From positions 558,258 through 622,257 of the forward strand of contig NZ_CP043316.1 of NCBI RefSeq assembly GCF_008189405.1: a stretch of 64,000 nt of DNA, given 5' to 3'. The position numbers and the translations under genes were made by a program. The DNA is from Candidatus Cytomitobacter primus. GTDB lineage: Bacteria > Pseudomonadota > Alphaproteobacteria > CAJXXZ01 > 1604HC. Positions 10,600 to 30,497 of this stretch are shown here, in pieces (position 1 is the stretch's first letter; every line of letters begins with the position of its first letter). A model generated the notes under the pieces. It was given only the letters and a program-made list of their open reading frames with translations, was not told the DNA's origin and made no database searches.

Positions 10600-10622
10600 A
10601 AGTCAATTTATAAGGGAGATAT

Positions 10623-12233: not shown

Positions 12234-12290
12234 TATGTCTGTATTAATCCATAAACTTAACAAACCTATATAAGATTAAGGAATTAATAT
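11761..12290 (+). repeat. conserved 3' block of the paralogue family, copy 1 (~530 bp including ~55 bp past the stop)
   Basis: Near-identical to the reverse complement of 23690-24241 (one visible silent mismatch) and highly similar to ~30040-30510. Confidence 0.8.
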
Positions 12291-12983: not shown

Positions 12984-13694
12984 TTATTTTGTTGTTTCAT
13001 TATCAGATTGCTTTGACTCTGATTTATCTGATTTTGGTTTATCTTCAGATTGAGCATCGTTTTGTTCAATGCTTTTTCTTGAAACAATTATGTTCCATTT
13101 TCTTTCCATTCTAATAATGAAGAAAGGAAGTTTTTTATTTCTCATGGTTTGCAATATATTGGAAGACTTTCCACCTATTGATCTAAATTCAATTTGACTT
13201 GAAGGAAGAAATGCTTTCACACCCCACGGAAGTAAAGCAACTATAAACCCACCACGTACTTTTTCTATAATAGTTCCTTCAACCAATTTTTTGCTTTGAA
13301 AAATATCTTCTAATTCTTTCCAAGATCTAATATGGTTAACTTTAGAAAAACTAACTACTAAAGATCCATTAGAATCTTCGTGTTTTTCGATCCAAACTGA
13401 AATCAAATCTCCAAGATTAGGAACCTCTCCAAATCCATTAATTTTGAATTCGTTTATATCTATTTTACCTTCGGCTTTAATGCCAATATTAACCCATACA
13501 TAATCTTTAGTAATGCTACTTACTGTAGCTTGAACTATGCTTTTTTCTCTGGGCATAGAAGATAACTTAGTCAGTTCTGACATTGCACTTACGTGTTCTG
13601 ATTTAACCTCTACTATTTGATCGTATTTTGTTTGCTTTGGTTTTAAACTATGCATGTCAACATTATATTCCAACACTTTGTTATAATCAAGCAT
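12984..13694 (-). CDS. S1 RNA-binding domain protein (RpsA-like, short)
   Basis: 236 aa. Two S1-like OB segments (ATVSSITKDYVWVNIGIKAEGKIDINEF and VEGTIIEKVRGGFIVALLPWGVKAFLPSSQIEF). Lys/Ser/Asp-rich tail. Confidence 0.5.
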   Translation of the reverse strand: MLDYNKVLEYNVDMHSLKPKQTKYDQIVEVKSEHVSAMSELTKLSSMPREKSIVQATVSSITKDYVWVNIGIKAEGKIDINEFKINGFGEVPNLGDLISVWIEKHEDSNGSLVVSFSKVNHIRSWKELEDIFQSKKLVEGTIIEKVRGGFIVALLPWGVKAFLPSSQIEFRSIGGKSSNILQTMRNKKLPFFIIRMERKWNIIVSRKSIEQNDAQSEDKPKSDKSESKQSDNETTK

Positions 13695-13753
13695 ATTAGT
13701 AGATATTGCTAAAAATGCACATATAATATATAGATTAGAGGTAAAGGAGTTTT

Positions 13754-15271: not shown

Positions 15272-15439
15272 AAAATCTTTTCTTTTTAAATGCATTGAGT
15301 GCTTTAATTAGTATTTCATTATCATTGTTTTTTTATCTTTATCTTATTTATTTAATTTTAACTTTTAATTTTTAACCTGATAATGATTAATCATTATATT
15401 TCTATTACAATATGATTTTCTTTATGAAATAATAAAATT

Positions 15440-16420
15440 ATGTTTAATATCGCAATTATCGGGGCTACAGGTCTTATTGGTAGATCTATTATAGATGTAT
15501 TACATGAGCGCGCATTTCCAATTAAGAATTTATACTTATTAAGTAGAGTAGAACAAGAAATTTCATTTAAAGATGAAGTATTAAAATGTACGAAGCTTGA
15601 GGACTTTGATTTTAAGTCTGTAGATATCATTTTTAATGCAACTGATAAAGATGTACTAATGAAATATATTGGCGAGATCACAGAATCTGGAGCATTTTTG
15701 ATTGATAAATCTGAAGCACTTAGAATGGATAAAGATATTCCACTTATTGTTCCAGAAGTTAATTCTGATCAATTAGATAGTTATATTACTAATAATAAAA
15801 TTATTTCTTCTCCAAATTGTGTAGCTATTCCTATGTCCATTATAATTAGAACATTGTCACATAAAACAGCAATTGAACAAATTTTCATGACCACATTTCA
15901 ATCTGTATCTGGAGCAGGCAATAATGGGACTAAAGCATTATTAGATGAAACAAAGAAAAGTTTTATGGCATCAAGTGTGAATGCAACTAATTTCGAAAAA
16001 AGCATAGCATTTGATATTTTGCCTAAAATCGGAAGTTTTAATTCTGACTTTACGACTTCTGAAGAATTGAAAATAAAACAGGAAATGCAGAAGATATTAA
16101 ATAATAAGTTAAATATCTGTGTAACATGCACTCGTGTGCCAGTACTAAAGGGACATGGAGTTGATTTGCATATTCCTTGTAAGTTTAAGGATAGAAATGA
16201 TGCAATTAAAGCACTAAAGAGCTCTGATGTGATTCACGTATGTGATAGAGATGATGCCTATATTACTCAGAAAGAATCCATAGGTGAGGATAAAATTTCT
16301 ATAAGCAGAGTGAGATATATTGATGGAATTTTAAGTATGTGGATTGCATATGATAATGTACGATTTGGTGGATCTGTAAATGGAGTGAAAATTGCTGAAG
16401 CAATTACAAAATCACTTTGA
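15440..16420 (+). CDS. asd: aspartate-semialdehyde dehydrogenase
   Basis: 326 aa. N-terminal Rossmann IAIIGATGLIGR, motif IVPEVN, catalytic SSPNCVAIP. Confidence 0.8.
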   Translation: MFNIAIIGATGLIGRSIIDVLHERAFPIKNLYLLSRVEQEISFKDEVLKCTKLEDFDFKSVDIIFNATDKDVLMKYIGEITESGAFLIDKSEALRMDKDIPLIVPEVNSDQLDSYITNNKIISSPNCVAIPMSIIIRTLSHKTAIEQIFMTTFQSVSGAGNNGTKALLDETKKSFMASSVNATNFEKSIAFDILPKIGSFNSDFTTSEELKIKQEMQKILNNKLNICVTCTRVPVLKGHGVDLHIPCKFKDRNDAIKALKSSDVIHVCDRDDAYITQKESIGEDKISISRVRYIDGILSMWIAYDNVRFGGSVNGVKIAEAITKSL

Positions 16421-16628
16421 TTGTAAAGAAAATAAAATAATAGCTGTACAGCATAGTAATAGCGCAATAATTGTAAAATATATTAACAATGAATAGTATA
16501 ATCGAAATTAATAAGATAAAGTAAAGCTAATATAATTTAATCATATAAGATGAAACAGAATAAAATATGTAGGGTAAAGTGCTTACACATTTACTAATAG
16601 AAAACTGCTATATGCTTTAATAGCGTAT

Positions 16629-17021
16629 CTATTTAGGTTCATAATGTGTCCAATTAGAGAACATGCTATACGCTCTAATAATGTGTCCATCAGGATCTGA
16701 AACTGCAAAAGTACGACCATAACATTCATCAGTTGGTTTTTGCACAACTTTCACATCAAGCTCATTTTGCCATTTATCAAAAAACACATCTACATCTTCT
16801 GTAGATTTCACGTGGATTCCAATTTCAGAAAACCTTACAATAGAAGTGTCTGGAGTTCTGGTTCCTTCACATATTGCAAATGATGAGTCTGCACCAGCTG
16901 CAAATTCTACATAACCAGGGTTAGCAAATACAGGTTTAGCATCAAACAGCTTTTCATAAAAAGCAGTTGAAGATTCCATATTAGATACATAAATAATTTG
17001 TAAATTTGGTCTAATTGTCAT
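16629..17021 (-). CDS. glyoxalase/VOC family protein
   Basis: 130 aa. Paired beta-alpha-beta-beta-beta-like segments typical of lactoylglutathione lyase-like VOC proteins. Confidence 0.45.
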   Translation of the reverse strand: MTIRPNLQIIYVSNMESSTAFYEKLFDAKPVFANPGYVEFAAGADSSFAICEGTRTPDTSIVRFSEIGIHVKSTEDVDVFFDKWQNELDVKVVQKPTDECYGRTFAVSDPDGHIIRAYSMFSNWTHYEPK

Positions 17022-17168
17022 TAAATTTTTTCCTTTGAATTAGAAATAACACTAATTATACCTTTAAACAAGAGTGCTAAATGTGCAAATAATTGCTTTT
17101 CCTCATGGCAAAACATATTCCATTTTAACTAGATATGCATGAATATTCATTATTATATATAGATGCAT

Positions 17169-17879
17169 TTAATTTAAAGATGTGATTTCGCTTAAGTTGT
17201 TGATAAAAGCTTGCATTGTAAATAATCCTGGGTTTTGATTTACAAGCCATTCACATACTTTCAAAGCATCATTTGCATAAATTTTGCGATTAAATACTTG
17301 ATGCTCAAATCGAATCATTTCTTGATTGTTTAAACCAAGGAATTGATGCATAGACATATTATCTCCTGCTCTTAAAGACCATATTTGATCAGCTTGTATT
17401 TTATCATGAAGCTGCTTAGTAGTCCCAGATGGATTGTCTGCTTTGTTTTTATGGTGTACTTCTCCAATTGAAACTGCAAGATTTCTTATTTTATTAATTT
17501 TCTCAATAGAAGATTGAATAATACTCCATGAAATTGATGTGTTTGGAGCCCATAGAATTGGAATAATATTTTGATATGCTTTGTAATCAGATGCAGTATG
17601 ACTGCCTGTAGTTCCAATAAGGATTGGTATATTGTATTGAACAGCTGATTTAATATTATTTAATGTGGATTGATGATTGGAGAAATCCAGAATCACATCA
17701 GCTCCTTTTTCAATATGATTTGATATCTTTGTATTATTTTGCGTTAGTGCAACCCCATGATACTGAGTATTTTCCCTAATAACCGCAGAGTGTATTATTA
17801 TGTTTTGCATTTGAGCAATTTGGATAATAGCTTGACCCATTCTACCATTTGCACCTACTATACATATTTTCATAATCAT
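17169..17879 (-). CDS. dapB: 4-hydroxy-tetrahydrodipicolinate reductase
   Basis: 236 aa. N-terminal MKICIVGANGRMGQAII NAD(P)-binding motif. Length and layout fit DapB. Confidence 0.65.
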   Translation of the reverse strand: MIMKICIVGANGRMGQAIIQIAQMQNIIIHSAVIRENTQYHGVALTQNNTKISNHIEKGADVILDFSNHQSTLNNIKSAVQYNIPILIGTTGSHTASDYKAYQNIIPILWAPNTSISWSIIQSSIEKINKIRNLAVSIGEVHHKNKADNPSGTTKQLHDKIQADQIWSLRAGDNMSMHQFLGLNNQEMIRFEHQVFNRKIYANDALKVCEWLVNQNPGLFTMQAFINNLSEITSLN

Positions 17880-17901
17880 ATTTTAACATCGATCAGATTA
17901 T

Positions 17902-18708
17902 ATGCATATGAATTTACATTCAATGTTTTATTATTCAGCTGATTCTGTTAAGTTTGATCTAATGATTACAGAATATATATTACATGGCATATTTGAAGCT
18001 TTTCCGGTTAGTTCTTCGATGCACTCAATGTTATTTAATTATGCAATGCAAAATAGCTATGTTATGCAAAATATTGGCATAATTGGGATATTACATGGCA
18101 TCACAGCAATTGTGACAATTGTATATTTTCATAAAAGTATAATTAAGTTATTAATAGATTTTATAAAACCAGGTCATTACAATTTTCTTTCTTGGAAACT
18201 ATGTTTGATTCTACTACCTAAATTATTATTTGGATTTATTTACAGAAATGCGAATTTCCCTTTTTCTTTTTATACAATAATTGCATTTGGACTGCTACTT
18301 GCCTTTTATGATATTTATTCCCATCAAAATAAAAAAGCTCATGAAATATCTTATATGCAGTCTATTTTTATTAGTTTTCTAAGTTTATTTGCATTCTTAC
18401 CGGGAGCAAGTAGTTTAGGAACTTACTATACAGCTTTTAGAGCATGCAACATTAATAGGAAGGAATCTCTTGATTATGCATTTATTTTGAATGTGATCCC
18501 ATCTATAGGTGCATTTGTGTTAAGATTTACTTATGTTGAAGTAAATTTAGTACGAATTTTTACTTGCATGTTTGTATACTTATTTGCACTAATTCTTTGT
18601 AGAAAATTAATAAATTATTTATATTTGCTAGGTATTTATAGAGTGATTATAGGAATATGGGTATGTCAAAACATAAATATACAAAAATACTTTTACTGTG
18701 CTTTTTAA
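17902..18708 (+). CDS. uppP: undecaprenyl-diphosphatase (BacA/UppP family)
   Basis: 268 aa polytopic. EAFPVSSSMHS block resembles the UppP TEFLPVSSTGH motif and PGASSLGT resembles PGxSRSG. Somewhat divergent. Confidence 0.5.
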   Translation: MHMNLHSMFYYSADSVKFDLMITEYILHGIFEAFPVSSSMHSMLFNYAMQNSYVMQNIGIIGILHGITAIVTIVYFHKSIIKLLIDFIKPGHYNFLSWKLCLILLPKLLFGFIYRNANFPFSFYTIIAFGLLLAFYDIYSHQNKKAHEISYMQSIFISFLSLFAFLPGASSLGTYYTAFRACNINRKESLDYAFILNVIPSIGAFVLRFTYVEVNLVRIFTCMFVYLFALILCRKLINYLYLLGIYRVIIGIWVCQNINIQKYFYCAF

Positions 18709-20369
18709 TTGTTGGATGTGATAAGAAATCTGATAAGAAAGAAACAATTAATTCAAAGATAGCTTCTAGTATACAAAAAGAAGATTGGTATGCAGCCTCG
18801 AAGCTGCTTAATTTACATTTAAACATGAAAAGCTCTGCTTCAATGCATCTAGCAAATGGTTTTATTTACGATAAACTTGCAAAGCAAGATCCATCCTATG
18901 CAGGATTATCAGTTATTGCATATAAAAGAGCATTGAATTTAGATCCAAATAATTGGTCTGCTTCATTAGCAATCGGTAAATATTATATGAGAGAACATGA
19001 TTACTTAAAGGCGATCAGCGCATTTGCAAAGACATTGACTTCTAATGAAAATAATTTCGAAGCATTATATGGAATGGCAAATGCTGCATATGCAACCAGA
19101 AACATTACATTAGCAAAAAATTGCATAGATAAAGCTATTGATTTACGTGGTGATAATAAATTAGTGAATAGGTTGGCTGCATTGATTTATGCTGCACAAA
19201 ATAACTCTCGAGCAGATAAATATGCAAATAAATATGCATTTATGGAAGATGACTTGTATGAAATTAAATATTTAAGAGACAGGATTCAAGACTGGAAGAA
19301 AACTCATAAAAAAATGAGATACAATCCTAATTTCATGAAATCTTTTGATAGCCCTGATACAAATCAGAAGGATGAAAATATTACAATTGAGTGTGTAATT
19401 CTAAGCTTTAATGAGTCAGGTGCATTTTCTCGTGGAAATAATTTCTTAGAAACTTTACAAGAATTTAAAAGAGATGAATTTACTAAAGGGTTAAGTATCA
19501 GAATGGGAAATAACTCACAAGTTGAAACTGGGTTAGCTTCTAGTCCTGTATATAGTAATAATCAAGATAAGAAATATATATTTGATAATGGGAAATGGAT
19601 TTTAAGTCCAGATCTGAATGATCATAGTAAATTAATTAAGAAAGGTTTTTCAATTGGATTTGATAGCATTAGATATAATTTAAATATTCTGAACTCTAGC
19701 AGCTCTATAATTGATATAATTTCTAGGCCAATTATGCAGGTTTCATCAAAAAATGGTAAAGGTGCATTTGATTCTAATGATAAAAGTTTTGTAAATACTG
19801 GTGGAGATGTAGGTTCTGCATTATCAAATATTCCATCTGGAGTAAAGCTAGAAGTTGAAGCAAATCAGGTCGATAAGGACCATATTATGTTAGGTGTAAT
19901 GTTGGAAATAAGCAAAACAACCTTCAAAAACAACATTGGATCTCTGAATGATAATGCTAATGTGATTAGTGCTCAATTACAAACACAAATCAAAGCTAAA
20001 TTAAATGAAACAATGGTTATTGGTGGTGTATATAGTAATGTGAATGAATCTTCTAAATCAGGAGTTCCTGGCGCACAAAATATGCCATTATTAGATTTAG
20101 TGCTTGCAAATAAAAGTACTCATACTTCTAAAAAGTCTGTAATGATGCTATTAACTGCAAAAAACACACAAGAATCTAAAGTGATGGAAGTTGATATTGA
20201 TCGCATGGAAAACGTTGTTCTATTAAAACAAAGTGAGCCATCATTCTTTAAGCACAAATATAATAGAGAAAAAACTATAAAACAACAAGTACATGCATAT
20301 AGAAGAGAGGATATAAAGTCGCTTAATATATCTAATAATACAATACAATCATTTGCTGAAAGAATATAA
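18657..20369 (+). CDS. TPR-repeat lipoprotein with C-terminal secretin-like domain
   Basis: 570 aa. Lipobox LIVGC. TPR-like repeats from about aa 40-200. The C-terminus (ETMVIGGVYSNVNESSKSGVPGAQNMPLLDLVLANKSTHTSKKSVMMLLTAKNT) matches the secretin C-terminal signature (GGL...VP.LgdIP.lG.LF...eLlifitP). Confidence 0.5.
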   Translation: MGMSKHKYTKILLLCFLIVGCDKKSDKKETINSKIASSIQKEDWYAASKLLNLHLNMKSSASMHLANGFIYDKLAKQDPSYAGLSVIAYKRALNLDPNNWSASLAIGKYYMREHDYLKAISAFAKTLTSNENNFEALYGMANAAYATRNITLAKNCIDKAIDLRGDNKLVNRLAALIYAAQNNSRADKYANKYAFMEDDLYEIKYLRDRIQDWKKTHKKMRYNPNFMKSFDSPDTNQKDENITIECVILSFNESGAFSRGNNFLETLQEFKRDEFTKGLSIRMGNNSQVETGLASSPVYSNNQDKKYIFDNGKWILSPDLNDHSKLIKKGFSIGFDSIRYNLNILNSSSSIIDIISRPIMQVSSKNGKGAFDSNDKSFVNTGGDVGSALSNIPSGVKLEVEANQVDKDHIMLGVMLEISKTTFKNNIGSLNDNANVISAQLQTQIKAKLNETMVIGGVYSNVNESSKSGVPGAQNMPLLDLVLANKSTHTSKKSVMMLLTAKNTQESKVMEVDIDRMENVVLLKQSEPSFFKHKYNREKTIKQQVHAYRREDIKSLNISNNTIQSFAERI

Positions 20370-20476
20370 TAAATATGGTTAAATTATATGATATCTGTAT
20401 AGTGAATTTAACTTAATTTTTGCTCAATAATACATTAAGGGCTTGATTAACCCAAAATTTATGGTAGATTAGTACC

Positions 20477-22150
20477 ATGAAATGTCATCGTAATATTTTA
20501 ATTGTTGTTTTTTCGAGTTTTTTAATGTATGATTCCCCTCACGCTATGGGAGAAGAATTAAATAAAGATACAAATAATATGTGTGCATTTATAGTACAAG
20601 CTTTAGAAGGCGATGCTGTACAAAATAGATCAGATCTTGTGAACATTCTTAAAGAAACATCTATGGTTATGTTAGAATTAGAAGAAATAAAAGGTAAATT
20701 AAGTGGATTATCTTCAAAATTAAGAGGATACGGGTTTGATGATCATAAATCAGGAACGGAATCAGAGAAAAAATTAATAGCAAAAGAAGTAGAAGAATCA
20801 GTTGATAATCAAGAGAAAACTACTATTTGTGATGAGAATGCACCTAATTGCGAATCACAGGAATCACAGGGATTAAGTGATAGTTCTGGTAGTAGCTCTT
20901 CAGGTAATACGAGCCCATCACATGATGAAATATCAGATTCTAAGCAACCAGAAACAGAGCTGGTAGTAGCATCTGAAACAAAAAAAGCAGATAGTCAAGA
21001 AACTACCAACTGTAATGAGAATACTACTACATTGCTAGATTCTAAGAAGGATGTTGCAAGTAGAGCTGTATTAGATGCTTCGACAGAATGTGATGACATA
21101 GAAGAACTTGATGCAAAATATAAATATACTAAACCAGAAGAACCATATGCTGCATACTATACTACAATTCAGGAAGATATAGAAATATTAAAACACGAAA
21201 TAATGACAACATATGTAGAAGCTGATAGCATAAAGCAAAAATTACAATTGAACCAAAGAGTTGTTAGTATACCTGATCTAAGTAATGCTAGCCTTACTAG
21301 CTCTGTTCATGATGTACGTTTCAATGAAATTGATATATCAAAGATGCATTATGATCCTAATCACTTTAGACTTCATACATTAGAGTTATACGATTGCACT
21401 GGCGTTTCATTGCCTCGTATAGATCTATATGACATTTTTCAAATATCTATTATTAACCATTTAGGTTCTGAGATGAATGCAAGTGATTTTTTTATGTTAC
21501 CTATAGATTTTAATCCTTCAGTAGTAAATATTATAAATAGCAATTTAAGTGGTGTGTTTATGGGATTATCAAATACTGTATACAAATTGTTAACATTAAA
21601 CATATCGCATAATGCACTTAAGAAATTTGAGAAATTCTCAGCACCAAAATTACAAGTTTTGAATGGTAATGACAATTCATTTACAAATTTACCATTATAT
21701 TTAGAAAACTTGCAATATTTATTTTTACAAAACAATCTTATTAATAATATTGATTGTGATAATAGTTTGAAATCATTGAGAGTGCTAGATTTAAGTGGCA
21801 ATAATCTTAGTACCCTGAATAGCAACATATTGAAAATTGGTTCAATTGCTCCTAATCTTGAAGAATTGCATATAAGTCATAATAAAATGGAAGGGTTTAT
21901 AGATCTAGGGGATATCCCAAAACTAAGAATACTTAAAGCTTCTGATAACATCAGATTATCAATTAGATTTAATCGTAATATAGAATATATTGATGTTACT
22001 AATACTTACATCATGGAAGTTACTAACTGTCCAGCAGTAGCTTTCATTACATTTGAATATACCCCTAGCATGGTATCAAGCACTGTAATATCACGTACTG
22101 AATCACTTTTAAAATCAGATGAGTTTAAAAAAAAACTAATTGTGAATTAA
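20477..22150 (+). CDS. leucine-rich repeat protein, N-terminal part (probable frameshifted fragment)
   Basis: 557 aa. Acidic and Ser-rich disordered middle. C-terminal LRRs (LDLSGNNLSTLNSNIL, LEELHISHNKMEGF). Ends immediately after an A9 run, and the downstream frame stays open into the next LRR ORF. Confidence 0.6.
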   Translation: MKCHRNILIVVFSSFLMYDSPHAMGEELNKDTNNMCAFIVQALEGDAVQNRSDLVNILKETSMVMLELEEIKGKLSGLSSKLRGYGFDDHKSGTESEKKLIAKEVEESVDNQEKTTICDENAPNCESQESQGLSDSSGSSSSGNTSPSHDEISDSKQPETELVVASETKKADSQETTNCNENTTTLLDSKKDVASRAVLDASTECDDIEELDAKYKYTKPEEPYAAYYTTIQEDIEILKHEIMTTYVEADSIKQKLQLNQRVVSIPDLSNASLTSSVHDVRFNEIDISKMHYDPNHFRLHTLELYDCTGVSLPRIDLYDIFQISIINHLGSEMNASDFFMLPIDFNPSVVNIINSNLSGVFMGLSNTVYKLLTLNISHNALKKFEKFSAPKLQVLNGNDNSFTNLPLYLENLQYLFLQNNLINNIDCDNSLKSLRVLDLSGNNLSTLNSNILKIGSIAPNLEELHISHNKMEGFIDLGDIPKLRILKASDNIRLSIRFNRNIEYIDVTNTYIMEVTNCPAVAFITFEYTPSMVSSTVISRTESLLKSDEFKKKLIVN

Positions 22151-22236
22151 TAGACACGCTGAGCAGTGAAGAATCTGATGAAAGTGAAGAACTTGATGAA
22201 GATATAGAAAATATACAATTTCTAAAAAATGAGCTA

Positions 22237-23241
22237 ATGGTAAATGGAAATAGTATTGGAAATCTTTATGTTGTACGTGGTTGCACAAAAGTAGTACTTA
22301 ATGATATAAAATTGACAGGAAATAAGTTAAGTATTCTGGATAAAATTATTAGTATAAATGAGTTAAGATATCTTGATTTAGTGAATTGTGCTTTGACCAA
22401 GGCTTTACCTAATATATTTACTTTACAACTATTAGAATGCCTATCTTTATCTAATAACAACTTATCAGAAATTGTAATAGCAAAAAAAACACTACCATGT
22501 TTAAGAAAGCTTGATTTATCTCGTAATAATTTATCAAAATTCAGTTGTAGGTTTCTACGACAAATAGAAGATTTGGATTTAAGTAGAAATAAAATTAGTG
22601 ACCTTAAATATATAAAAAATATGAAAAATCTAGTTTCTTTAAATATAGCTAATAATAATATAGATCAATTAGATGATATTGGCGATTTAGTTAATATAGA
22701 AATACTTAACTTTGTAAATAATCGTATTTCAAAATTACCATGCTTAGATGCTCTGCAAAAATTACGTGGATATTATGCACGTAATAATAGGTTTGCATGC
22801 ATAGAAGAAACTTTCAAACCTATTCATAATATAATTTGTAGGAAAGTTCCAATAGGCGTAATATATAATCCAGATACTATGAGATATGTTGTGAAATATG
22901 GTTATCATCATACAATGAATGATGCTCTATATTACCTTCCCTATGAGATGCATATTTGTGGTGGGGATGGAAAAGAATATGATGCAATAGAGAAAGTCTC
23001 ACATACCGATGACGATAAGATATCTAAATTCAAAAAAGAATATAGAGTTGGAATTCCCAATTATAATTCTAAACATAGAATGCAAATACATGGAAATGTA
23101 GATAAAGGGATATATGATTTCATTAGTCATTATGTAACTGTGGATTGTGTGTATTGTGAAGTCAGTAGTACTAATAGACCCCCATCTAATTATGAAGATA
23201 ATTTTCAAAACATGCAGAGATGCGCATGCTATGGCTATTAG
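22237..23241 (+). CDS. leucine-rich repeat protein, C-terminal part
   Basis: 334 aa. Tandem LRRs (LDLSRNNLSKF, LDLSRNKISDLKYIKNMKNLVSLNIANNNIDQL). Its reading frame is open upstream to at least 22141, which suggests it was originally fused to the 20477-22150 ORF. Confidence 0.6.
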   Translation: MVNGNSIGNLYVVRGCTKVVLNDIKLTGNKLSILDKIISINELRYLDLVNCALTKALPNIFTLQLLECLSLSNNNLSEIVIAKKTLPCLRKLDLSRNNLSKFSCRFLRQIEDLDLSRNKISDLKYIKNMKNLVSLNIANNNIDQLDDIGDLVNIEILNFVNNRISKLPCLDALQKLRGYYARNNRFACIEETFKPIHNIICRKVPIGVIYNPDTMRYVVKYGYHHTMNDALYYLPYEMHICGGDGKEYDAIEKVSHTDDDKISKFKKEYRVGIPNYNSKHRMQIHGNVDKGIYDFISHYVTVDCVYCEVSSTNRPPSNYEDNFQNMQRCACYGY

Positions 23242-23689
23242 ATTTGTTTATCATTAGTAATTATGCATCTTGATATTTATTCGTAATGTTTTTTATTATG
23301 CCTTATAATACCATTTTCAATTAATAAATTAAACTTAAGTTACTTTGAATCGCAATCATTTATACCAGAAGATTAGATTAACTATATAAAAATATTAGAT
23401 CTTTGAAGCAGTTGGTTGAAAGGTTTATACATATAATAAGATCATAGTTAGTTAGGATAGCAATGAGAGAAGGGAATTATTTCTACTGCTAATAGTTATG
23501 ACCATTTGATGTTATGACAATATATATCATCATAAGGTAAATGGATGGGATGAATAATTTAGAATATCTATACATTATGCTGCTTCGATTGCCTAAAAAT
23601 GTATTTTCAATAATCTCAATTAATAAATCATAGTATTATATACTATTATAAACTAATCCTATATATCAATAACGTAATAACATTTTTCT

Positions 23690-24241
23690 TAATATTATAT
23701 AGGTTTGTTAAGTTTATGGATTAATACAGACACATTATTGCAGGGATTTGATTTTTTCGTTTGAGATTGCATTTAGTTTCTCAATGTCTGAAGATTCTAG
23801 TTTTAACATGCCCTCTAATGCGTCCTTTGCACTGTTCATGAAGTCTCGCCCTCTAGCATTCTCCTTGTATTCTGCCCATCTTAAGAACAAGAAGTTTCCA
23901 AAGATCTCTCCCATCATGTCCTTATCACCTTCGTATCCATTCAGCAATTCCTCTGCTCTGTCAAACAAGTGTACGATATAATCCTCATGATCACGTTCCT
24001 TCGCAAGCTTAGCAGCTTCTTCTTTTCTTAATGCTGTAACAGCCTTGTCTCCATCAGATTTTGCATACCAGTCAGCATAATCCTTCTTGAAAAACTCAAC
24101 GTCACCTCTACGCTCCTCCCCGGGATAATATGCTTGGAATTTTCGGTCTCCTCCTCCATTTCCAACTTTATAATAAAGCTTACTCCTAATAATTGCATTT
24201 AACATACTTATCAGCCTCCTTAAAATGCTTTTGCATAGCAT
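23690..24241 (-). repeat. conserved 3' block of the paralogue family, copy 2
   Basis: Reverse complement is near-identical to 11761-12290. Confidence 0.8.
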
Positions 24242-25070
24242 TCCCTACCTTGACAGTTCTAATTACATTCCAAGATGCATCCTGTCTAACAACCTCATCA
24301 AGCATGATTTTAAATTTCTCCAAGCCTTTTGCCGCCTCAACTGCCATCTTCTTTAACGCAATATGCTTTGCAATGTTTGTAAAATGTTCCTTGTCTTTTG
24401 ATAGGGATTGTAAAATAGTTGCATTAACCTTTGCTGCTTCCGCTTTATCGCTCAGCATCGATAATCCTGGATTTTCTAGGTTGTACTCATATATTGAATT
24501 GTAGTACAAACTATGAGCTTCCAACCTATCTGATTCTAAGTCCCAATCAACTTCTAATGTTCCATTTTGAGACCTGTCAGCAAGATATACAGCATTTTTG
24601 AATACATCACCATCCATGTCATAGTTACCATACGCATCTGCTAACTCCGCATAGCGAGTACTCTGCTTCATTATGTAAGAACGGGACTCATAAACGTATC
24701 GCAACATGGCATATTCAGTAGCTTGCTCATCCTTTAAATTATTTAGTTGTTCTTGCAACTCTTCTTCACTATATTTAGATAATGATTCTATGTATTCATC
24801 TTCATCATCTTGGTTAATCATTTGCATATATACGATTGATTTACACTTATTATCTGTAAGATCTTTAACAACTTCTTTAGTTCCATCAAGTACAGTTTGA
24901 TAAAACTCATCATCTCTACATTCTAAATTAGATTCCTCCAGCTCTATTGCTAAAGATTGATCAGATTTCTTCAAACAATATGCAAATTTACTTGTGCATT
25001 CCGTTAATTCTGGGCCATTTGCCATAACTGATAAGCATAATACCAGCGATAAAATTCTTAGATTCTTCAT
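23735..25070 (-). pseudogene. paralogue family copy 2, disrupted by an internal deletion of ~100 codons plus a frameshift
   Basis: Two overlapping ORFs in different frames. The 294-aa N-terminal part (signal peptide plus central block) ends at 24186 with KEADKYVKCNY. The 168-aa C-terminal block begins at 24241 with MLNAIIRSKLYYKVGNGGG. The region homologous to copy 1 aa ~292-395 is missing. Confidence 0.7.
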
Positions 25071-25093
25071 ATATCTCCCTTATAAATTGATTT

Positions 25094-25122
25094 ATTATGT
25101 TATATTTACACCTAAATAACAA
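25094..25122 (-). promoter_or_regulatory. sigma70-like promoter TTGTTA-N17-CATAAT of family copy 2 (reverse strand)
   Basis: Reverse complement of 25071-25150 is identical to 10543-10622, including the RBS AAGGGAG. Confidence 0.45.
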
Positions 25123-25217
25123 GAGATTTTGCAGGAAAACCTACCTGAAATAGGCATAATTTATATAATATTTAGGTAGCAATCTTATAGAGTGTACTAT
25201 TTCTAATAATAATTATC

Positions 25218-25763
25218 CTAATCGAATATTTCTTCTTTTATCACTTTCCCACCCATATCAAACTGCTTCCATATTCCTGATTTATTTCCATCTATGTATT
25301 GTCCAAATTCTAGAATATTAGATGATTTTGGGTGATATGTAATAGAATTTCCGTAAAGTAAATCATCTTTATAATTCTCTTCTTTGACTAAATACCCTTT
25401 TCCAAATATGAAAAATGCTCCATGTTTTTTATTATCCTTATATGCTCCTATTTGCGATAAATTACGATTCTCAAATATATACATAGCGCCATCTGGTTTT
25501 TCACCCTTATAGTTCATGATCAAACTTAATTCACCATTTTTATAAATTTCTACAACTCCATCAATTTTCCCATCTTTATAATTGACTCTTTGTGCAATGG
25601 ATCCATTTTTATAATATATGCTCTCTCCATTTCGCACGCCATCTTTCAATATATGCTTCTCAACAACTTTTCCATCAATCACAACTTCTTCAAATTGTTG
25701 CTCTGGAATTTCTTCAGTTTTACAGTTCAATTCATGCTTTTTTATAATCTGCTCAATATTCAT
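25218..25763 (-). CDS. MORN-repeat (MORN_2 / YwqK-like) protein, translationally coupled to vgrG
   Basis: 181 aa. Repeated YKNG/YKDGK/YKGEKPDG units. Its ATG shares one nucleotide with the vgrG stop (TAATG). Confidence 0.6.
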   Translation of the reverse strand: MNIEQIIKKHELNCKTEEIPEQQFEEVVIDGKVVEKHILKDGVRNGESIYYKNGSIAQRVNYKDGKIDGVVEIYKNGELSLIMNYKGEKPDGAMYIFENRNLSQIGAYKDNKKHGAFFIFGKGYLVKEENYKDDLLYGNSITYHPKSSNILEFGQYIDGNKSGIWKQFDMGGKVIKEEIFD

Positions 25764-28700
25764 TAGTTTAAATTCACCATTCCTGCTTTTATATTAATCA
25801 TTGCTGATGCTTCAATATCTGCTGTTGTATCACTTTTTAGCGCCACAATTCCTCCTTTTAAGTTTAAATTACCCCCAGCTTCCAAAGTTAGGTTTCCTCC
25901 AGATTTAATTGTAAAATTGCTAGATGCCTTATATGTAATCTGATTTGCTTCAATTTCCATATTTCCTCCTGAGATTTTGATAGTATGATTTCCACTATTA
26001 ATCGTTATATCTTTGTTCCCGGAAATTTCTTCTTTACTATTACCATTCCCTAGATTTATTTCCATATTCCCTTTAGAAATTTCGATATTCATATTTCCAT
26101 CCTGAAGTGTAATTTCTTTATTTCCCTTGTTTAAATCTAATTTATAATTACCTTCCTCAATTTTCGTAATCATATCTCCATTTTTGAGCTCAGTGAGGAA
26201 ATGCTTCGCTTCCTCTGATTCTAATTTAATCTCTTTGTTCCCTTTTTTGATGATTAATATATCATTTCCTTCTCCATCTGTAGGTTCATCTTCCCCAGAC
26301 AATTCTACCTTTCGATCTCCACGCCCAATAATCAATTCTGAAGATCCAGTTTGAATTGTAGAGCTTTTACCATCTTTAATAATTTCCTCATAATCTTTCT
26401 CAGCATGCAAAAATATTTTTTCTTCATTTGCTTTGTCCTCAAAGCTAAATTCATTGAATCCACGCTCTTCGCCTTCTTCAACATCTTTTAGCGATTCTGT
26501 TTTTAGGCCAGTTTTCGAAATAACATCTTCAGTTTCAACCAGATTATACGGTGGCATTGTAGTTCTATTATATAAGCACCCTGTAATAATTGGGTAATTT
26601 GGATTCCCATTTTCGAATGAAATTACAACTTCTTGCCCTATACGAGGAACAAAAAATCCTCCCCATTCATTTCCAGCGCCTCCCCATTGCGCAACACGAA
26701 TCCATACAGCTTGCTGCAGCATCTCTCCATTACTCAAATTCTTTCTCCCATTATCCCAATGGAAATAAACTTTCACTTGCCCTAGGTGATTTGTATAGAT
26801 TTTCTGATCCTCTCCACCAACAACAATTCCTGTCTGAATTCCTGCAATTTTCCTGTATGGCTCAGGTTTGACTTTAAATGGTTGATCAATTTTCGAAAAC
26901 ACGGCGCTATTTTCATAGTGTAAAACCATATCATCCAAATCTACAGTAGCATCATCCATATTTTTATCCACAGCCTGATATTCTAATTTATGAGAAACTC
27001 GCTTTACATAATACTGCCCATTCATCTCAATATCTGGGTGATGCGTAAGAACAAACTTGTATCCAGGGCTAACTTCCTGACGAAAAGTTTTTGTATGATA
27101 TTCTGTCTCACTTGTATCTGCATGTTGATTGCATATTCCATTATATTCTTTCACTTTTTGATCTGAGGTAAATGTTTCGCTATAATGATCATCCACATCG
27201 CTAGCAGAACTCTCTGATGAATTTGCCCCAGAGGAATTTTCAACTTCATGAATTATATTGCGCTTTTCAGGGTCAAGATCTGGGTTGAATCCTTGAAGTT
27301 GGGTGGAATTAGGGGCATATTTATGTGCAACATTCCATTGCGAGATATATTTATCGTTACGACCCTCCAATCCAGTTGTTGTATAATGCAAAGGACGAGA
27401 ATCGGTGAATGGGTCGGACATATCAAAAACTTTTGAAACAGCTCCATCTTCTACAGCCCCTTTCCCCTTAGATTGCGATTCAGCAACAATTTGCGTGTCA
27501 AAACCATCGTCGAAAATACTCATTTCTCCACTTTGTACGGAAGTATAGGCGTTCGCTCCTTTGGAGGCTAACTCTCCTGTGGGGCTATAGTTTTCAATGG
27601 CATTTTCATACCCTAAATATGTTTTATATGGCGAGGGAGATGAGGAAGCAGAAGGAGAAACACTACCTGATTCATCAGCAATTTCTGCACCATCTCCAGA
27701 ATTAAACCCAGCCAAATCATCTTCCTCTTCCTCGTCATCCGCATCATAGTTAGCATCTGCACTATCTGACACATCTGCTCCCTGAGGATTATTATAAAAC
27801 ACAATCCCTGTATGCACGTCCGTATGCTCAAAACAATAATAAACCCCAAAATCCCTACACAACCGATTCAATAACTCCCAATCCGTCTCCTCATACTGCA
27901 CTATATATTCAGGAAAATCCTCCTGTTCACTCTTAGCAAAATTTGTCTGATCATCATAATTCAAATATTTACTCCTTGGATTCTCAATCGCAGCCATACG
28001 ATATTGTGCATCCAAAATACTCATATTAATATCAATAATTACCTTATCATAATGATTATCATGCTGGTCATTCTTTGCCTCAAATTCATCTATTTGAATT
28101 TCATAATCATCTGATTGTGATTCATAATTTCCATGTATGGCAACTAATTCTGAAGTTCTATCTTTTGATTTTTCATCTTTTAAAGTTATATTATTTTTCT
28201 TTATTAATCTTTCAATAATATTTGCCATTAATTTTGACTTGTTAAATATGATATCTTGATTTTGCTCAACTGGTGCGTCATCTACAGATGGATAGAAAAT
28301 ACGATTACGTTTTGTGCCTAATTTAAATTGCATTTCAGGAATCATGCTAAACCCATAAACATAATATTGCTCTTCCTTAGTTGGGGTTTTTATTCCTAAA
28401 TATGTCCATTCATTGATTATTCCATGCCAATATTTTCTATCAATATTTGGCTTGCCAACACTTAAGCCCATGTGCATTTTTTTACTAATCATATTTGGTT
28501 TTTTCTCAAAAAATGCAACTTCTCCTTGAATAAAGAATGGTTGAGATAACCCTTCCTCTATATTAACTTTATAAACTCTCCCTAAATGACGTTTATATCT
28601 TCTATCTTCATCAGTTTTAGGTTGCCATTGATCATAACCTAAGGTCGCTAATCCAATCATTTCAAAATCAGAATTATCTTCAACCTTTTGGTTATGCTTA

Positions 28701-28768
28701 TAAGTATTATTATAATCTTCTTCTAAGGTATAATCTTTTTTTTCGAGCTCTTCAGGCATTTGAGACAA
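25763..28768 (-). CDS. vgrG: type VI secretion spike protein VgrG
   Basis: 1001 aa. gp5-like OB-fold block VAQWGGAGNEWGGFFVPRIGQEVVISFENGNPNYPIITGCLYN. C-terminal beta-helix repeats (SGNKDITINSGNHTIKISGGNMEIEANQITYK...). Acidic low-complexity insert (DADDEEEEDDLAGFNSGDGAE...). Confidence 0.85.
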   Translation of the reverse strand: MSQMPEELEKKDYTLEEDYNNTYKHNQKVEDNSDFEMIGLATLGYDQWQPKTDEDRRYKRHLGRVYKVNIEEGLSQPFFIQGEVAFFEKKPNMISKKMHMGLSVGKPNIDRKYWHGIINEWTYLGIKTPTKEEQYYVYGFSMIPEMQFKLGTKRNRIFYPSVDDAPVEQNQDIIFNKSKLMANIIERLIKKNNITLKDEKSKDRTSELVAIHGNYESQSDDYEIQIDEFEAKNDQHDNHYDKVIIDINMSILDAQYRMAAIENPRSKYLNYDDQTNFAKSEQEDFPEYIVQYEETDWELLNRLCRDFGVYYCFEHTDVHTGIVFYNNPQGADVSDSADANYDADDEEEEDDLAGFNSGDGAEIADESGSVSPSASSSPSPYKTYLGYENAIENYSPTGELASKGANAYTSVQSGEMSIFDDGFDTQIVAESQSKGKGAVEDGAVSKVFDMSDPFTDSRPLHYTTTGLEGRNDKYISQWNVAHKYAPNSTQLQGFNPDLDPEKRNIIHEVENSSGANSSESSASDVDDHYSETFTSDQKVKEYNGICNQHADTSETEYHTKTFRQEVSPGYKFVLTHHPDIEMNGQYYVKRVSHKLEYQAVDKNMDDATVDLDDMVLHYENSAVFSKIDQPFKVKPEPYRKIAGIQTGIVVGGEDQKIYTNHLGQVKVYFHWDNGRKNLSNGEMLQQAVWIRVAQWGGAGNEWGGFFVPRIGQEVVISFENGNPNYPIITGCLYNRTTMPPYNLVETEDVISKTGLKTESLKDVEEGEERGFNEFSFEDKANEEKIFLHAEKDYEEIIKDGKSSTIQTGSSELIIGRGDRKVELSGEDEPTDGEGNDILIIKKGNKEIKLESEEAKHFLTELKNGDMITKIEEGNYKLDLNKGNKEITLQDGNMNIEISKGNMEINLGNGNSKEEISGNKDITINSGNHTIKISGGNMEIEANQITYKASSNFTIKSGGNLTLEAGGNLNLKGGIVALKSDTTADIEASAMINIKAGMVNLN

Positions 28769-28898: not shown

Positions 28899-30497
28899 AT
28901 GAAGAATCTAAAAATCTTATCATTACTATTATGTTTATCAGTTATGGCAAATGGCCCAGAATTAACGGAATGTACAAGTAAGTTTGCGTATTGTTTGAAG
29001 AGTCCTGGTCGCGCAACGGAAGTTGCTGTGCCAAATATGGGTGCACAGGTTCTCACTGATGCCGTATATAAAAAGAGATACGATATAGTAAAGGGTGCAA
29101 TTCCATCAATAGATGAAGAGAAGTGCAAATATCTTGTATATACAATGATTATTAATAGAAAAAGCAAACCAGAATATGTTAAGAAAATAGGTGAGAATAC
29201 AGTTGAGCAATTGTTTGCAGGTTTATCCAATGCGGATAAATCATATGCCATGCTGCGATACGTTTATGAATCTCGTCCTTACATAATGAAGCAGAGTGCT
29301 CGCTATGCGGAGTTAGCAGATGCGTATGGTAACTATGACATGGATGGGGATGTGTTCAAGAATGCTATGTATTTGGCAGAGAGATCTCAAAATGGAACCT
29401 TAGAAGTTGATTGGGACTTAGAGTCAGATAGGCTAGAAGCTCATAGTTTGTATTATAACTCGATATATGAGTACAACCTAGAAAATCCAGGATTATCGAT
29501 GATTAGTGACAAAGCAGAAGCAGCAAAGGTTAATGCAACTATTTTACAATCCCTATCAAAAGACAAGGAACATTTTACAAACATTGCAAAGCATATTGCA
29601 TTAAAGAAGATGGCAGTTGAGGCAGCTAAGGGGTTAGAGAAATTTAAAATCATGCTTGATGAGGTTGTAAGGCAGGATGCGTCTTGGAATATGGTTCATA
29701 TAGTTCAGATGAACAAGGCTGCACAAAAGCATTTTAAAGATACTCAACTTTATTTAGATGATTTGGTAGGCGTAGAAATAACTATGTCAGATCTGAGATC
29801 AATTAAGAATGTCCAAGGTGGATATGTAGTTATTTTTGGCGATAAAGACAAAGTAAAATTTGATGAGATTATAGAATTATTTAATACAGATAGGGAAAAA
29901 TGCAAAGAGCTTATTTGGGAAAGAATAGTAGCGGGAGAAGAATATATAAACAAATATATAGTGAAGCCTATGTTTGATAAGCTCTTTAATGAGATGGAAA
30001 AGATGGACAAAGAAGTATTGCAAGAGGTAATAAATAGATCACGTAAAGAGAAAGTTTGGGGTGAAGTAGGAAATAGGGGAGGAGGAAAGAAGTTTCGCGC
30101 ATACTACCCAGGAGAGGAGCGTCGAGGTGACGTTGAGTTCTTCAAGAAGGATTATGCTGACTGGTATGCAAAATCTGATGGAGACAAGGCTGTTACAGCA
30201 TTAAGAAAAGAGGAAGCTGCTAAGCTTGCGAAGGAGCGTGATCATGAGGATTATATCGTACACTTGTTTGACAGAGCAGAGGAATTGCTGAATGGGTACG
30301 AAGGTGATAAGGACGTCATGGGAGAGATCTTTGGAAACTTCTTGTTCTTAAGATGGGCAGAATACAAAGAGAATGCTAGAGGGCGAGACTTCATGAACAG
30401 TGCAAAGGATGCCCTAGAAGGTATGTTAAAACTAGAATCTTCAGACATTGAGAAACTAAATGCAATCTCAAACGAAAAAATCAAATCCCTGCAATAA
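28899..30497 (+). CDS. secreted mosaic paralogue family protein, copy 3
   Basis: 532 aa. Same signal peptide, central block and C-terminal block as copy 1. The V1 and V2 cassettes are divergent but recognisably homologous. Confidence 0.85.
   Translation: MKNLKILSLLLCLSVMANGPELTECTSKFAYCLKSPGRATEVAVPNMGAQVLTDAVYKKRYDIVKGAIPSIDEEKCKYLVYTMIINRKSKPEYVKKIGENTVEQLFAGLSNADKSYAMLRYVYESRPYIMKQSARYAELADAYGNYDMDGDVFKNAMYLAERSQNGTLEVDWDLESDRLEAHSLYYNSIYEYNLENPGLSMISDKAEAAKVNATILQSLSKDKEHFTNIAKHIALKKMAVEAAKGLEKFKIMLDEVVRQDASWNMVHIVQMNKAAQKHFKDTQLYLDDLVGVEITMSDLRSIKNVQGGYVVIFGDKDKVKFDEIIELFNTDREKCKELIWERIVAGEEYINKYIVKPMFDKLFNEMEKMDKEVLQEVINRSRKEKVWGEVGNRGGGKKFRAYYPGEERRGDVEFFKKDYADWYAKSDGDKAVTALRKEEAAKLAKERDHEDYIVHLFDRAEELLNGYEGDKDVMGEIFGNFLFLRWAEYKENARGRDFMNSAKDALEGMLKLESSDIEKLNAISNEKIKSLQ

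What the first reader, a model, noticed from the sequence alone, without database searches (positions are those of the whole stretch)
23735..25070. Copy 2 is an internally deleted, frameshifted cassette that keeps its promoter and signal peptide
The N-terminal 294 codons and the C-terminal 168 codons sit in different frames and overlap by 56 nt. About 100 codons of the V2 region are missing. The promoter, RBS, signal peptide and both conserved blocks remain near-identical to copy 1. This resembles a silent donor cassette in gene-conversion antigenic-variation systems, or a very recent pseudogenisation.
Basis: seen in the sequence. Interest (0 to 1): 0.6.

Follow-up and report, generated by a model that had tools for sequence, protein, structure and literature searches.

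The report
Deleted gene copy, intact on resequencing
One of three copies of an unknown secreted-protein gene beside the type VI secretion genes of a protist endosymbiont carries a 272-base frameshifting deletion in this assembly. A later long-read assembly of the same strain has that copy intact and the DNA between two copies flipped, so it is a transient lesion or an assembly error in a recombining gene pair, not a silent antigen cassette.

Summary
Copy B (23735-25070, minus strand) splits into 294-aa and 168-aa ORFs in different frames that overlap by 56 nt. Compared with copy A (10623-12233) it lacks 272 nt, bounded in A by a 7-nt direct repeat, TATGTTA. The upstream region, ribosome-binding site and signal peptide are retained.

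The window is Ca. Cytomitobacter primus, from the 622,357-bp Illumina-only SPAdes assembly. A PacBio HiFi assembly of the same host strain (OX638200.1) is 100% identical over about 63 kb except at this locus. There, copy B is an intact 535-codon gene, and the roughly 11.4-kb interval between inverted copies A and B lies in the opposite orientation. In that assembly A and B share a perfect 1037-nt inverted repeat. recA is present in the window.

Two related genomes also have vgrG flanked by an inverted pair of family members. These pairs are nearly identical except for a divergent N-terminal block, which indicates concerted evolution.

The lesion is either a real but unfixed or since-repaired deletion allele, or an assembly artefact; I cannot separate these without reads. 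The silent-donor-cassette reading is not supported. The protein family is an orphan.

The parts
24186..25070 (-). Copy B, 5' part: 294-aa ORF comprising the signal peptide, copy-specific V1 block (about 24717-24958) and conserved block C1. It stops 4 out-of-frame codons after the deletion junction. GenBank QEK38785.1.
23735..24241 (-). Copy B, 3' part: conserved block C2 in a different frame (168-aa mechanical ORF). GenBank annotates 156 aa (QEK38784.1) starting at the ATG inside TATGTTA (24205). A Shine-Dalgarno-like AAGGAGG lies 9 nt upstream of that ATG.
24200..24206 (-). Deletion junction: the single remaining TATGTTA.
25075..25157 (-). Upstream region of copy B shared with copy A (95%), and its last ~55 nt shared with copy C. 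Contains -35/-10-like TTGTTA-17-CATAAT (25122-25094) and AAGGGAG (about 25081-25075).
   Evidence: (I5, I6)
10623..12233 (+). Copy A, intact 536-aa paralogue (P0001, QEK38774.1), directly downstream of tssA. Inverted relative to B.
11490..11761 (+). The 272-nt segment of copy A (V2 block) that is absent from copy B. Bounded by TATGTTA at 11490-11496 and 11762-11768.
12284..23684 (.). Interval between the inverted A/B repeat arms (11,401 nt). Carries an S1-domain protein, tlc, asd, dapB, bacA, a TPR-secretin and two LRR proteins. It is in the opposite orientation in the HiFi assembly OX638200.1.
28899..30497 (+). Copy C, intact 532-aa paralogue (P0002), divergently oriented upstream of vgrG. 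87-93% nt identity to B in the conserved blocks, with different V1 and V2.
25218..28768 (-). vgrG (25763-28768) plus a MORN/YwqK-like 181-aa gene (25218-25763). This is the module flanked by copies B and C.
5037..10451 (+). T6SS membrane/baseplate genes dotU/tssL (5037-5771), tssM (5764-9591) and tssA (9579-10451), immediately upstream of copy A.
49863..50930 (+). recA, the enzyme needed for homologous recombination between the copies.

Best explanation
What copy B is. Copy B is normally a complete 535-codon gene. It is the MORN/vgrG-side member of an inverted pair of orphan genes that flank the vgrG module in Cytomitobacter-type endosymbionts. The encoded proteins carry a signal peptide and are predicted to be all-helical. 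C. primus has a third copy next to tssA.

What the lesion is. In this assembly, copy B carries a 272-nt deletion between two 7-nt direct repeats (TATGTTA). This is the signature of slipped-strand or microhomology-mediated deletion. It shifts the frame and truncates the protein after 290 native residues.

My preferred reading (inferred). This was a real deletion allele in the symbiont population sampled for the 2019 Illumina assembly. It was never fixed, or it was later erased.

Why erasure is plausible. Copies A and B are inverted repeats that are kept nearly identical by RecA-dependent gene conversion. One conversion-with-crossover event using copy A as template would have two effects. It would restore the 272 nt in B, and it would flip the 11.4-kb interval between the copies. 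Those are exactly the two differences seen in the 2021 HiFi assembly.

Conclusion. It is not a programmed silent cassette.

Shown: the deletion, the microhomology, the intact copy and inversion in the other assembly, the perfect 1037-nt inverted repeat, recA, and concerted evolution.
Inferred: that the deletion existed in cells, and the conversion-plus-crossover route.
For: 1. Derived lesion. Copies A and C, the HiFi version of B (P0005) and the positional counterparts in two related genomes (P0006, P0007) are all 532-556 aa and cover the deleted block.

2. Microhomology. The junction has 7-nt microhomology, P about 0.001 for arbitrary deletions.

3. Same clone. OX638200.1 comes from the same host strain YPF1604. 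It is 100% identical to the window over 623-63998 except at this locus: B intact, interval inverted.

4. Recombination substrate and enzymes. In OX638200.1, A and B are identical over gene nt 487-1523 (1037 nt). Three synonymous C2 differences travel with the flanks. recA is in the window, and RecFOR is reported for these symbionts.

5. Concerted evolution. dS is 0.08-0.5 in the constant blocks versus 0.9-2.3 in V1. Outside V1, paralogues are 72-99% identical within a genome but 19-31% between genomes; inside V1 they are 17-39% identical within a genome.

6. Precedent. In Salmonella tuf genes, almost half of selected conversion events also invert the segment between the inverted copies (PMC5485169).

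7. Assembly logic (inference from how de Bruijn assemblers work).
- Contig sequence is built from k-mers present in reads, so the junction probably had read support.
- The junction lies inside the perfect repeat, not at its edges, where a collapsed-repeat join would be expected.
- With the deletion in place, the perfect repeats shrink to about 388 and 384 nt, which MiSeq read pairs could bridge. That fits closure without long reads.
Against: - The only two differences in about 63 kb sit in the one long repeat of a short-read-only assembly, where misassembly is most likely.
- The orientation of a segment between 1-kb perfect inverted repeats cannot be set by ordinary Illumina pairs.
- The two assemblies differ in length by only 21 nt despite the 272-nt indel. 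So at least 251 nt of other differences exist outside the window, which hints at further assembly discrepancies.
- The truncated products occur on no other contig in the 15-billion-protein collection.
- I could not see reads.
Confidence: 0.45

Rival explanations
1. Pure assembly artefact. The real genome has always had both A and B intact, as in the HiFi assembly. The Illumina-only SPAdes assembly, or its closure, mis-resolved the 1037-nt perfect inverted repeat. That produced an arbitrary orientation of the interval and a spurious 272-nt loss in one copy.
For: - C. primus was assembled from MiSeq reads only. Nanopore was used only for other species.
- The repeat (1037 nt perfect) exceeds usual insert sizes.
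- HiFi reads resolve it and show an intact copy.
- All differences between the assemblies within the window are confined to this repeat.
- The total length difference of 21 nt implies other compensating discrepancies elsewhere.
- From memory, SPAdes' scaffolder can close gaps on very short overlaps, which could mimic a 7-nt microhomology. I have not checked this.
Against: - The junction is internal to the repeat: 381 nt from its start and 384 nt from its end. It is not at the repeat boundaries or k-mer-sized contig overlaps, where a collapsed-repeat join would fall.
- De Bruijn contigs normally contain only k-mers seen in reads (inference).
- The rest of the assembly is base-perfect over 63 kb.
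Confidence: 0.4
2. Recombinational switch. Homologous inversion between copies A and B moves a frameshifting lesion in the shared region from one gene to the other. This would toggle which N-terminal variant (V1-A or V1-B) is made as a full-length secreted protein. It would be a RecA-driven analogue of invertible-segment phase variation.
For: - The inverted copies have different V1 blocks and an identical remainder.
- The interval is found in both orientations in two assemblies of one strain.
- The lesion lies inside the exchangeable region.
- The same V1-island architecture is conserved in two other genomes.
Against: - In the HiFi assembly both genes are intact, so there is no lesion to toggle.
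- With both intact, the inversion changes only three synonymous sites.
- No recombinase gene or specific crossover site was found in or beside the interval.
- The related genomes show intact pairs.
- The deletion repeats (TATGTTA) are absent from copy C.
Confidence: 0.07
3. Silent donor cassette of a gene-conversion antigenic-variation system. Copy B would be kept as an unexpressed archive that donates variable sequence to an expressed copy.
For: - It is a frameshifted copy with conserved blocks flanking a distinct V1.
- Gene conversion clearly operates in the family.
Against: - It retains the upstream region, ribosome-binding site, start codon and signal peptide.
- There are only three copies, two of them intact and apparently expressible.
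- The copy is intact in the HiFi assembly and at the same position in two related genomes.
- Conversion homogenises the constant blocks rather than moving V blocks, and V1-A and V1-B stay at their own loci in both assemblies.
- The host is a protist without adaptive immunity (general knowledge).
Confidence: 0.03

Closest known systems
Co-evolving inverted duplicate genes, e.g. tufA/tufB of Salmonella (Abdulkarim & Hughes 1996; Hughes 2000, as cited in PMC5485169)
   Same: - Two inversely oriented, nearly identical genes on one chromosome.
- RecA-dependent gene conversion keeps them alike and can repair a mutant copy from the other.
- About half of conversions are accompanied by inversion of the segment between them.
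- Here there is a 1037-nt perfect inverted repeat, recA, an inverted 11.4-kb interval and a lesion present in one assembly but not the other.
   Different: - The genes here are orphan secreted proteins beside T6SS genes, not housekeeping genes.
- Homogenisation stops at a sharply divergent N-terminal block (V1) that is kept different in each copy.
- Conversion itself was not observed, only inferred from two assemblies.
Pseudogenisation by short-direct-repeat deletion in reduced endosymbiont genomes
   Same: It is a derived internal deletion bounded by a 7-nt direct repeat, with a frameshift and premature stop, in an AT-rich 0.62-Mb genome.
   Different: - It is not fixed: the same strain's HiFi assembly has the intact gene.
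- These genomes are reported to have very few pseudogenes and to retain RecA/RecFOR.
Silent-cassette antigenic variation (pilE/pilS, vlsE/vls, msp2, vlhA; review PMC4534519)
   Same: It is a multicopy gene with conserved blocks flanking variable blocks, and there is evidence of gene conversion within the family.
   Different: - Archive copies in those systems lack promoters and 5' ends, and are numerous.
- Here the copy keeps all expression signals, only three copies exist, the copy is intact on resequencing, and no V-block transfer is seen.
Invertible-segment phase variation (Hin/Gin/shufflon; Mycoplasma pulmonis vsa, described in PMC4534519)
   Same: A DNA segment bounded by inverted repeats is found in both orientations. 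The repeats lie inside coding sequences, so inversion exchanges gene 3' parts.
   Different: - There is no site-specific recombinase or short defined crossover site.
- The repeats are 1 kb of plain homology.
- With both copies intact, inversion has no coding consequence.
Collapsed or mis-resolved repeat in a short-read assembly
   Same: The lesion lies in a repeat longer than the library inserts, in an Illumina-only assembly, and is absent from a long-read assembly.
   Different: The junction lies inside the repeat at a microhomology, not at the repeat edges or k-mer overlaps.

Membership tests
Silent donor cassette (gene-conversion antigenic variation) | The archive copy lacks its own promoter, ribosome-binding site, start codon or 5' end | tested here: not met
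   Copy B has the same upstream ~87 nt (95% identical to A), AAGGGAG, ATG and signal peptide as the intact copies.
Silent donor cassette (gene-conversion antigenic variation) | One expression site plus an archive of many partial copies | tested here: not met
   Three copies were found among 5.8 billion proteins and among 1.84 billion cluster representatives. A and C are intact with their own expression signals.
Silent donor cassette (gene-conversion antigenic variation) | Variable-block sequence moves from the archive into the expressed copy (population heterogeneity in V regions) | tested here: not met
   In two assemblies of the same strain, V1-A stays beside tssA and V1-B stays beside the MORN/vgrG module. 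Only the identical 3' parts and flanks are exchanged. This compares two consensus assemblies only, not a population sample.
Silent donor cassette (gene-conversion antigenic variation) | The copy is stably non-functional in the lineage | tested here: not met
   It is an intact 535-aa gene in OX638200.1. Intact counterparts occupy the same position in OZ247489.1 and OZ247501.1.
Deletion pseudogene (reductive evolution) | Derived loss relative to intact relatives, with a frameshift or premature stop | tested here: met
   272 nt is missing relative to A, C, P0005, P0006 and P0007. A stop follows 4 out-of-frame codons after the junction.
Deletion pseudogene (reductive evolution) | Short direct repeats at the deletion borders | tested here: met
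   TATGTTA lies at both borders in copy A and once in B. P is about 0.001.
Deletion pseudogene (reductive evolution) | Lesion fixed in the organism | tested here: not met
   It is absent from the HiFi assembly of the same host strain.
Assembly artefact at a long repeat | The repeat is longer than the reads or inserts used, with no long reads | tested here: met
   The perfect inverted repeat is 1037 nt. The assembly used MiSeq and SPAdes only.
Assembly artefact at a long repeat | Not reproduced by an independent long-read assembly | tested here: met
   OX638200.1 has both copies intact.
Assembly artefact at a long repeat | The breakpoint coincides with the repeat edges or contig overlaps | tested here: not met
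   The junction is at gene nt 868/1140, whereas the perfect repeat spans 487-1523.
Assembly artefact at a long repeat | No raw reads contain the junction | not testable with these tools
The truncated products occur on no other contig in the collection, which is uninformative.
Co-evolving inverted duplicates (tuf-type conversion and inversion) | Inverted, near-identical copies on one replicon, with recA present | tested here: met
Co-evolving inverted duplicates (tuf-type conversion and inversion) | Paralogues more alike within a genome than orthologues between genomes (concerted evolution) | tested here: met
   Outside V1, identity is 72-99% within genomes versus 19-31% between them. dS is heterogeneous along the gene.
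Co-evolving inverted duplicates (tuf-type conversion and inversion) | Inversion of the intervening segment observed | tested here: inconclusive
   The interval has opposite orientation in the two assemblies. The orientation in the short-read assembly may not have been data-driven.
Invertible-segment phase variation | Dedicated recombinase and a defined crossover site, with inversion changing what is expressed | tested here: not met
   No recombinase gene was found in or beside the interval. With both copies intact, only three synonymous sites change.

The most novel reading that the evidence does not exclude
The vgrG-flanking gene family may be a recombination-managed diversity system in a 0.62-Mb endosymbiont. 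Each genome would keep two or three sharply different N-terminal modules (V1) on a common body that RecA-driven conversion between inverted copies homogenises. Inversions, and lesions in the shared body, would then switch which V1 variant is made as a full-length secreted T6SS-associated protein. The deleted copy B and the flipped interval would be two snapshots of that switch.
Probability: 0.07. Interest if true: 0.65.

Novelty: new member of a known kind. Interest (0 to 1): 0.3.

Why it matters
- Annotation. QEK38785.1 and QEK38784.1 are two halves of a gene that is intact (WP_284442952.1) in the better assembly. They should not be counted as a pseudogene or a cassette without read-level support.
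- Biology. The locus shows that a highly reduced endosymbiont still has active homologous recombination. Inverted paralogues beside vgrG evolve in concert except for an N-terminal block that stays different in every copy and every genome. This marks an orphan secreted protein family as a likely specificity-bearing partner of the modified T6SS, and a candidate for host or competitor interaction.
- Possible natural experiment. If the deletion was real, the two assemblies document loss and recombinational rescue of a gene within a few years of culture.

Tried and rejected
- Function of the family.
  - Pfam and NCBIfam gave no hit for any member.
  - A PDB sequence-profile search gave nothing (best E 0.41).
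  - AlphaFold2 models were poor. With 3 sequences the mean pLDDT was 39. With 5 sequences it was 50, with only residues about 51-190 confident.
  - Foldseek against PDB gave no match with E <= 0.001. I ran no further fold searches because the model is unreliable.
- Wider homologues.
  - The word-indexed search with a single sequence and with a 7-sequence profile returned only the C. primus proteins.
  - The full HMM scan of 1.84 billion representatives added only P0006 and P0007.
  - The genome-contig scan found only the same two MAGs.
  - No member was detected in C. indipagum or N. abundans at these sensitivities.
- A hairpin bringing the two TATGTTA repeats together: not supported (DNA fold z = 0.29).
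- Unequal crossover between TATGTTA#1 of one copy and TATGTTA#2 of the other during inversion: rejected. The reciprocal product would carry a duplicated V2, but copy A is 1611 nt in both assemblies.
- Promoter scan: one plausible site upstream of B, but the site count is not above shuffles.
- Synteny in related genomes cannot say which orientation of the interval is ancestral, because the flanks are rearranged.
- Positional orthology of V1 types across species: only a weak hint. Copy C's V1 is 27-33% identical to the vgrG-upstream copies of the other genomes, versus 13-17% to their other copies. The block is too short and divergent to claim this.

Full report
**1. What is in the window**

The window is AT-rich, about 30% GC. 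The region of the finding holds two minus-strand ORFs: 24186-25070 (294 aa) and 23735-24241 (168 aa). They are in different frames and overlap by 56 nt.

Repeat analysis shows three copies of the gene, not two:
- Copy A, 10623-12233 (+), 536 aa, intact.
- Copy B, the finding.
- Copy C, 28899-30497 (+), 532 aa, intact.

The three-way DNA alignment shows a mosaic along the gene:
- About 55-90 nt upstream plus the first ~100 nt, covering the signal peptide MKNLRILSLVLCLSVMA/NG, are conserved.
- A ~250-nt block, V1, is different in all three copies.
- A conserved block, C1, follows.
- A second block, V2, is shared by A and the full-length form of B but differs in C.
- A conserved block, C2, closes the gene.

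Copy B matches A at 95% (5' end), 97% (C1) and 99% (C2). It matches C at only 87-93%.

Relative to A, copy B lacks exactly 272 nt. These are gene nt 868-1139, window 11490-11761. In A the segment begins with TATGTTA and is followed by a second TATGTTA; B keeps one copy at 24200-24206. Since 272 is not a multiple of 3, the frame shifts, and a TAG follows 4 out-of-frame codons after the junction. Microhomology of 7 nt or more is expected for only about 0.1% of arbitrary deletions in this gene, so the junction is microhomology-mediated.

- About 91 codons are missing, not 100.
- There are three copies.
- The nearest relative of B is copy A.

**2. Where the window comes from, and the key comparison**

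Copy A's protein is 100% identical to a hypothetical protein of Candidatus Cytomitobacter primus. The only other hits among 5.8 billion proteins are copy C and the 294-aa fragment. C. primus is a Holosporaceae endosymbiont of the diplonemid Diplonema japonicum.

The exact-sequence look-up shows two assemblies:
- A 622,357-bp contig carries the 294-aa and 156-aa fragments (QEK38785.1, QEK38784.1).
- A 622,378-bp contig (OX638200.1, GCA_951805245.1) carries a 535-aa protein, P0005 / WP_284442952.1. This protein is B's N-terminal part, then the missing block, then the C-terminal part.

The sequencing histories differ:
- The first assembly was made from MiSeq reads with SPAdes 3.11.1. No long reads were used for C. 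primus. The host was strain YPF1604.
- The second was made from PacBio HiFi reads with metaMDBG. The host was the same strain YPF1604, with cells collected in April 2021.

I fetched about 63 kb of OX638200.1 (loci L001, L002, L007, L008). It is 100% identical to window 623-63998 except at this locus. Two differences exist:
- The 272-nt block is present in both A and B in OX638200.1.
- The interval between A and B is in the opposite orientation. The genes that follow copy A in the window (S1-domain protein, tlc, asd...) follow copy B in OX638200.1. The LRR genes that follow copy B in the window follow copy A there.

In OX638200.1 the two copies are perfectly identical over gene nt 487-1523, which is 1037 nt. 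Three synonymous C2 differences (nt 1524, 1548, 1566) stay with their downstream flanks.

**3. What this means for the finding**

An independent long-read assembly of the same strain shows exactly that. Two readings remain, and I cannot separate them without reads.

(a) A real allele that was unfixed or later repaired.
- De Bruijn contigs are built from k-mers present in reads (inference).
- The junction lies inside the perfect repeat, 381 nt from one end and 384 nt from the other. A collapsed-repeat join would be expected at the repeat edges.
- With the deletion in place, the perfect repeats are only about 388 and 384 nt, short enough for MiSeq pairs to bridge. That would explain closure without long reads (inference).
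- The rest of the Illumina assembly is base-perfect over the window.
- There is an established mechanism that produces both differences in one step. In Salmonella tufA/tufB, inverted duplicates repair each other by RecA-dependent gene conversion, and almost half of selected conversions also invert the segment between them (PMC5485169).
- recA is in the window at 49863-50930, and RecFOR is reported for these symbionts.

(b) An assembly artefact.
- The only differences in 63 kb lie in the one repeat that short reads cannot span.
- The orientation of such an interval is arbitrary without long reads.
- The genome lengths differ by 21 nt, not 272. At least 251 nt of other discrepancies must therefore exist outside the window.

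I put (a) at about 0.45 and (b) at about 0.40.

**4. Why it is not a silent cassette**

In the classic systems, archive copies lack promoters and 5' ends, are numerous, and donate variable segments into an expression site (review PMC4534519). Here the picture is different:
- The copy has the full upstream region, AAGGGAG, ATG and signal peptide.
- Only three copies exist.
- The copy is intact on resequencing.
- The two assemblies show no movement of V1 blocks. V1-A stays beside tssA and V1-B stays beside the MORN/vgrG module.

**5. The family and its context**

Copy A lies directly after dotU/tssL, tssM and tssA. Copies B and C flank vgrG plus a MORN/YwqK-like gene in inverted orientation.

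A full HMM scan of 1.84 billion representatives found only two further relatives: P0006 (542 aa) and P0007 (556 aa). They lie on 619-kb and 622-kb circular genomes labelled 'MAG: Rickettsiales bacterium' (OZ247489.1, OZ247501.1). In both genomes, vgrG and its small partner gene are again flanked by an inverted pair of family members.

Those pairs show the same mosaic. In OZ247501.1 the inverted repeat runs 263 nt at 99% and 1310 nt at 99%, with a divergent V1 of about 235 nt in between.

Quantitatively:
- Outside V1, paralogues are 72-99% identical within a genome but 19-31% identical between genomes.
- Inside V1, they are 17-39% identical within a genome.

In C. primus, dS is 0.08-0.5 in the constant blocks and 0.9-2.3 in V1, where dN is about 0.8-1.0. 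This is concerted evolution of the gene body by gene conversion, with V1 escaping homogenisation. It argues that each copy, including B, is a functional gene with its own N-terminal module.

What the protein does is unknown. There is no Pfam, NCBIfam or PDB match. The AlphaFold models are all-helical but of low confidence, and Foldseek finds nothing significant. Two things suggest a guess at function: the signal peptide, and the conserved position beside vgrG in a T6SS that lacks Hcp and TssJ (George et al.). I infer an exported T6SS-associated or host-interaction protein. This is inference only.

**6. Verdict**

The sequence feature is real in this record. It is a derived, microhomology-mediated 272-nt deletion in a normally intact gene, and it is absent from a better assembly of the same strain.

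It belongs to a known kind. Either it is a lesion in a pair of inverted, co-evolving paralogues (tuf-type conversion and inversion), or it is a short-read repeat artefact. The cassette reading is not supported.

The more interesting by-products are two. One is the flipped 11.4-kb interval between assemblies. The other is the conserved architecture in which a divergent V1 block sits in an otherwise homogenised gene body flanking vgrG. Interest in the finding itself is modest (0.3).

Noticed in passing
window 12284-23684 (between copies A and B): The 11.4-kb interval is in opposite orientation in the HiFi assembly OX638200.1 of the same strain. It carries an S1-domain protein, tlc, asd, a glyoxalase, dapB, bacA, a TPR-secretin and two LRR proteins. 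It is bounded there by a perfect 1037-nt inverted repeat formed by copies A and B.
   Followed up: yes
L003 3592-5316 / 10001-11629; L004 4525-6201 / 10001-11671: In two related ~0.62-Mb genomes (OZ247489.1, OZ247501.1), vgrG is also flanked by an inverted pair of family members. These pairs are near-identical except for an N-terminal block of about 235 nt. Outside that block, paralogues cluster by genome; inside it, they do not.
   Followed up: yes
window 24203-24221 (minus strand): A Shine-Dalgarno-like AAGGAGG lies 9 nt upstream of the ATG within the junction TATGTTA, and the 294-aa ORF stops 15 nt downstream of that ATG. The C-terminal 156 aa (annotated QEK38784.1) could therefore be translated by coupling, without a signal peptide, if the deletion allele exists in cells.
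   Followed up: partly
whole genome, outside the window: The two assemblies differ by only 21 nt in length (622,357 versus 622,378) although this locus alone accounts for 272 nt. At least 251 nt of further differences must therefore lie outside the 64-kb window.
   Followed up: no
window 25763-28768 (-): VgrG (1001 aa as the mechanical ORF; called as 998 aa in OX638200.1) has a long acidic and Ser/Asp-rich low-complexity insert, roughly residues 330-520, between its gp27-like and gp5-like parts.
   Followed up: no
window 25218-25763 (-): The 181-aa gene after vgrG is called a YwqK-family immunity protein by George et al. It gives only a sub-threshold MORN_2 hit (E 8e-4) and a partial hit to a Leptospira adhesin model (NF033566, far below cutoff). 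It abuts vgrG, sharing one base with it.
   Followed up: partly
L003 5492-5706 and 9620-9834: In OZ247489.1, a 215-nt stretch of the vgrG 5' region is repeated in inverted orientation (86%) next to a 98-aa ORF, just upstream of the downstream family member. This may be a remnant of an earlier rearrangement.
   Followed up: no
window 28899-29010, 10623-10734, 24959-25070: After the shared signal peptide, copies A and C share a further ~10 residues (SPGxATExAV) that copy B lacks. The 5' boundary of V1 therefore differs between copy pairs, which is a sign of mosaic recombination tracts.
   Followed up: no
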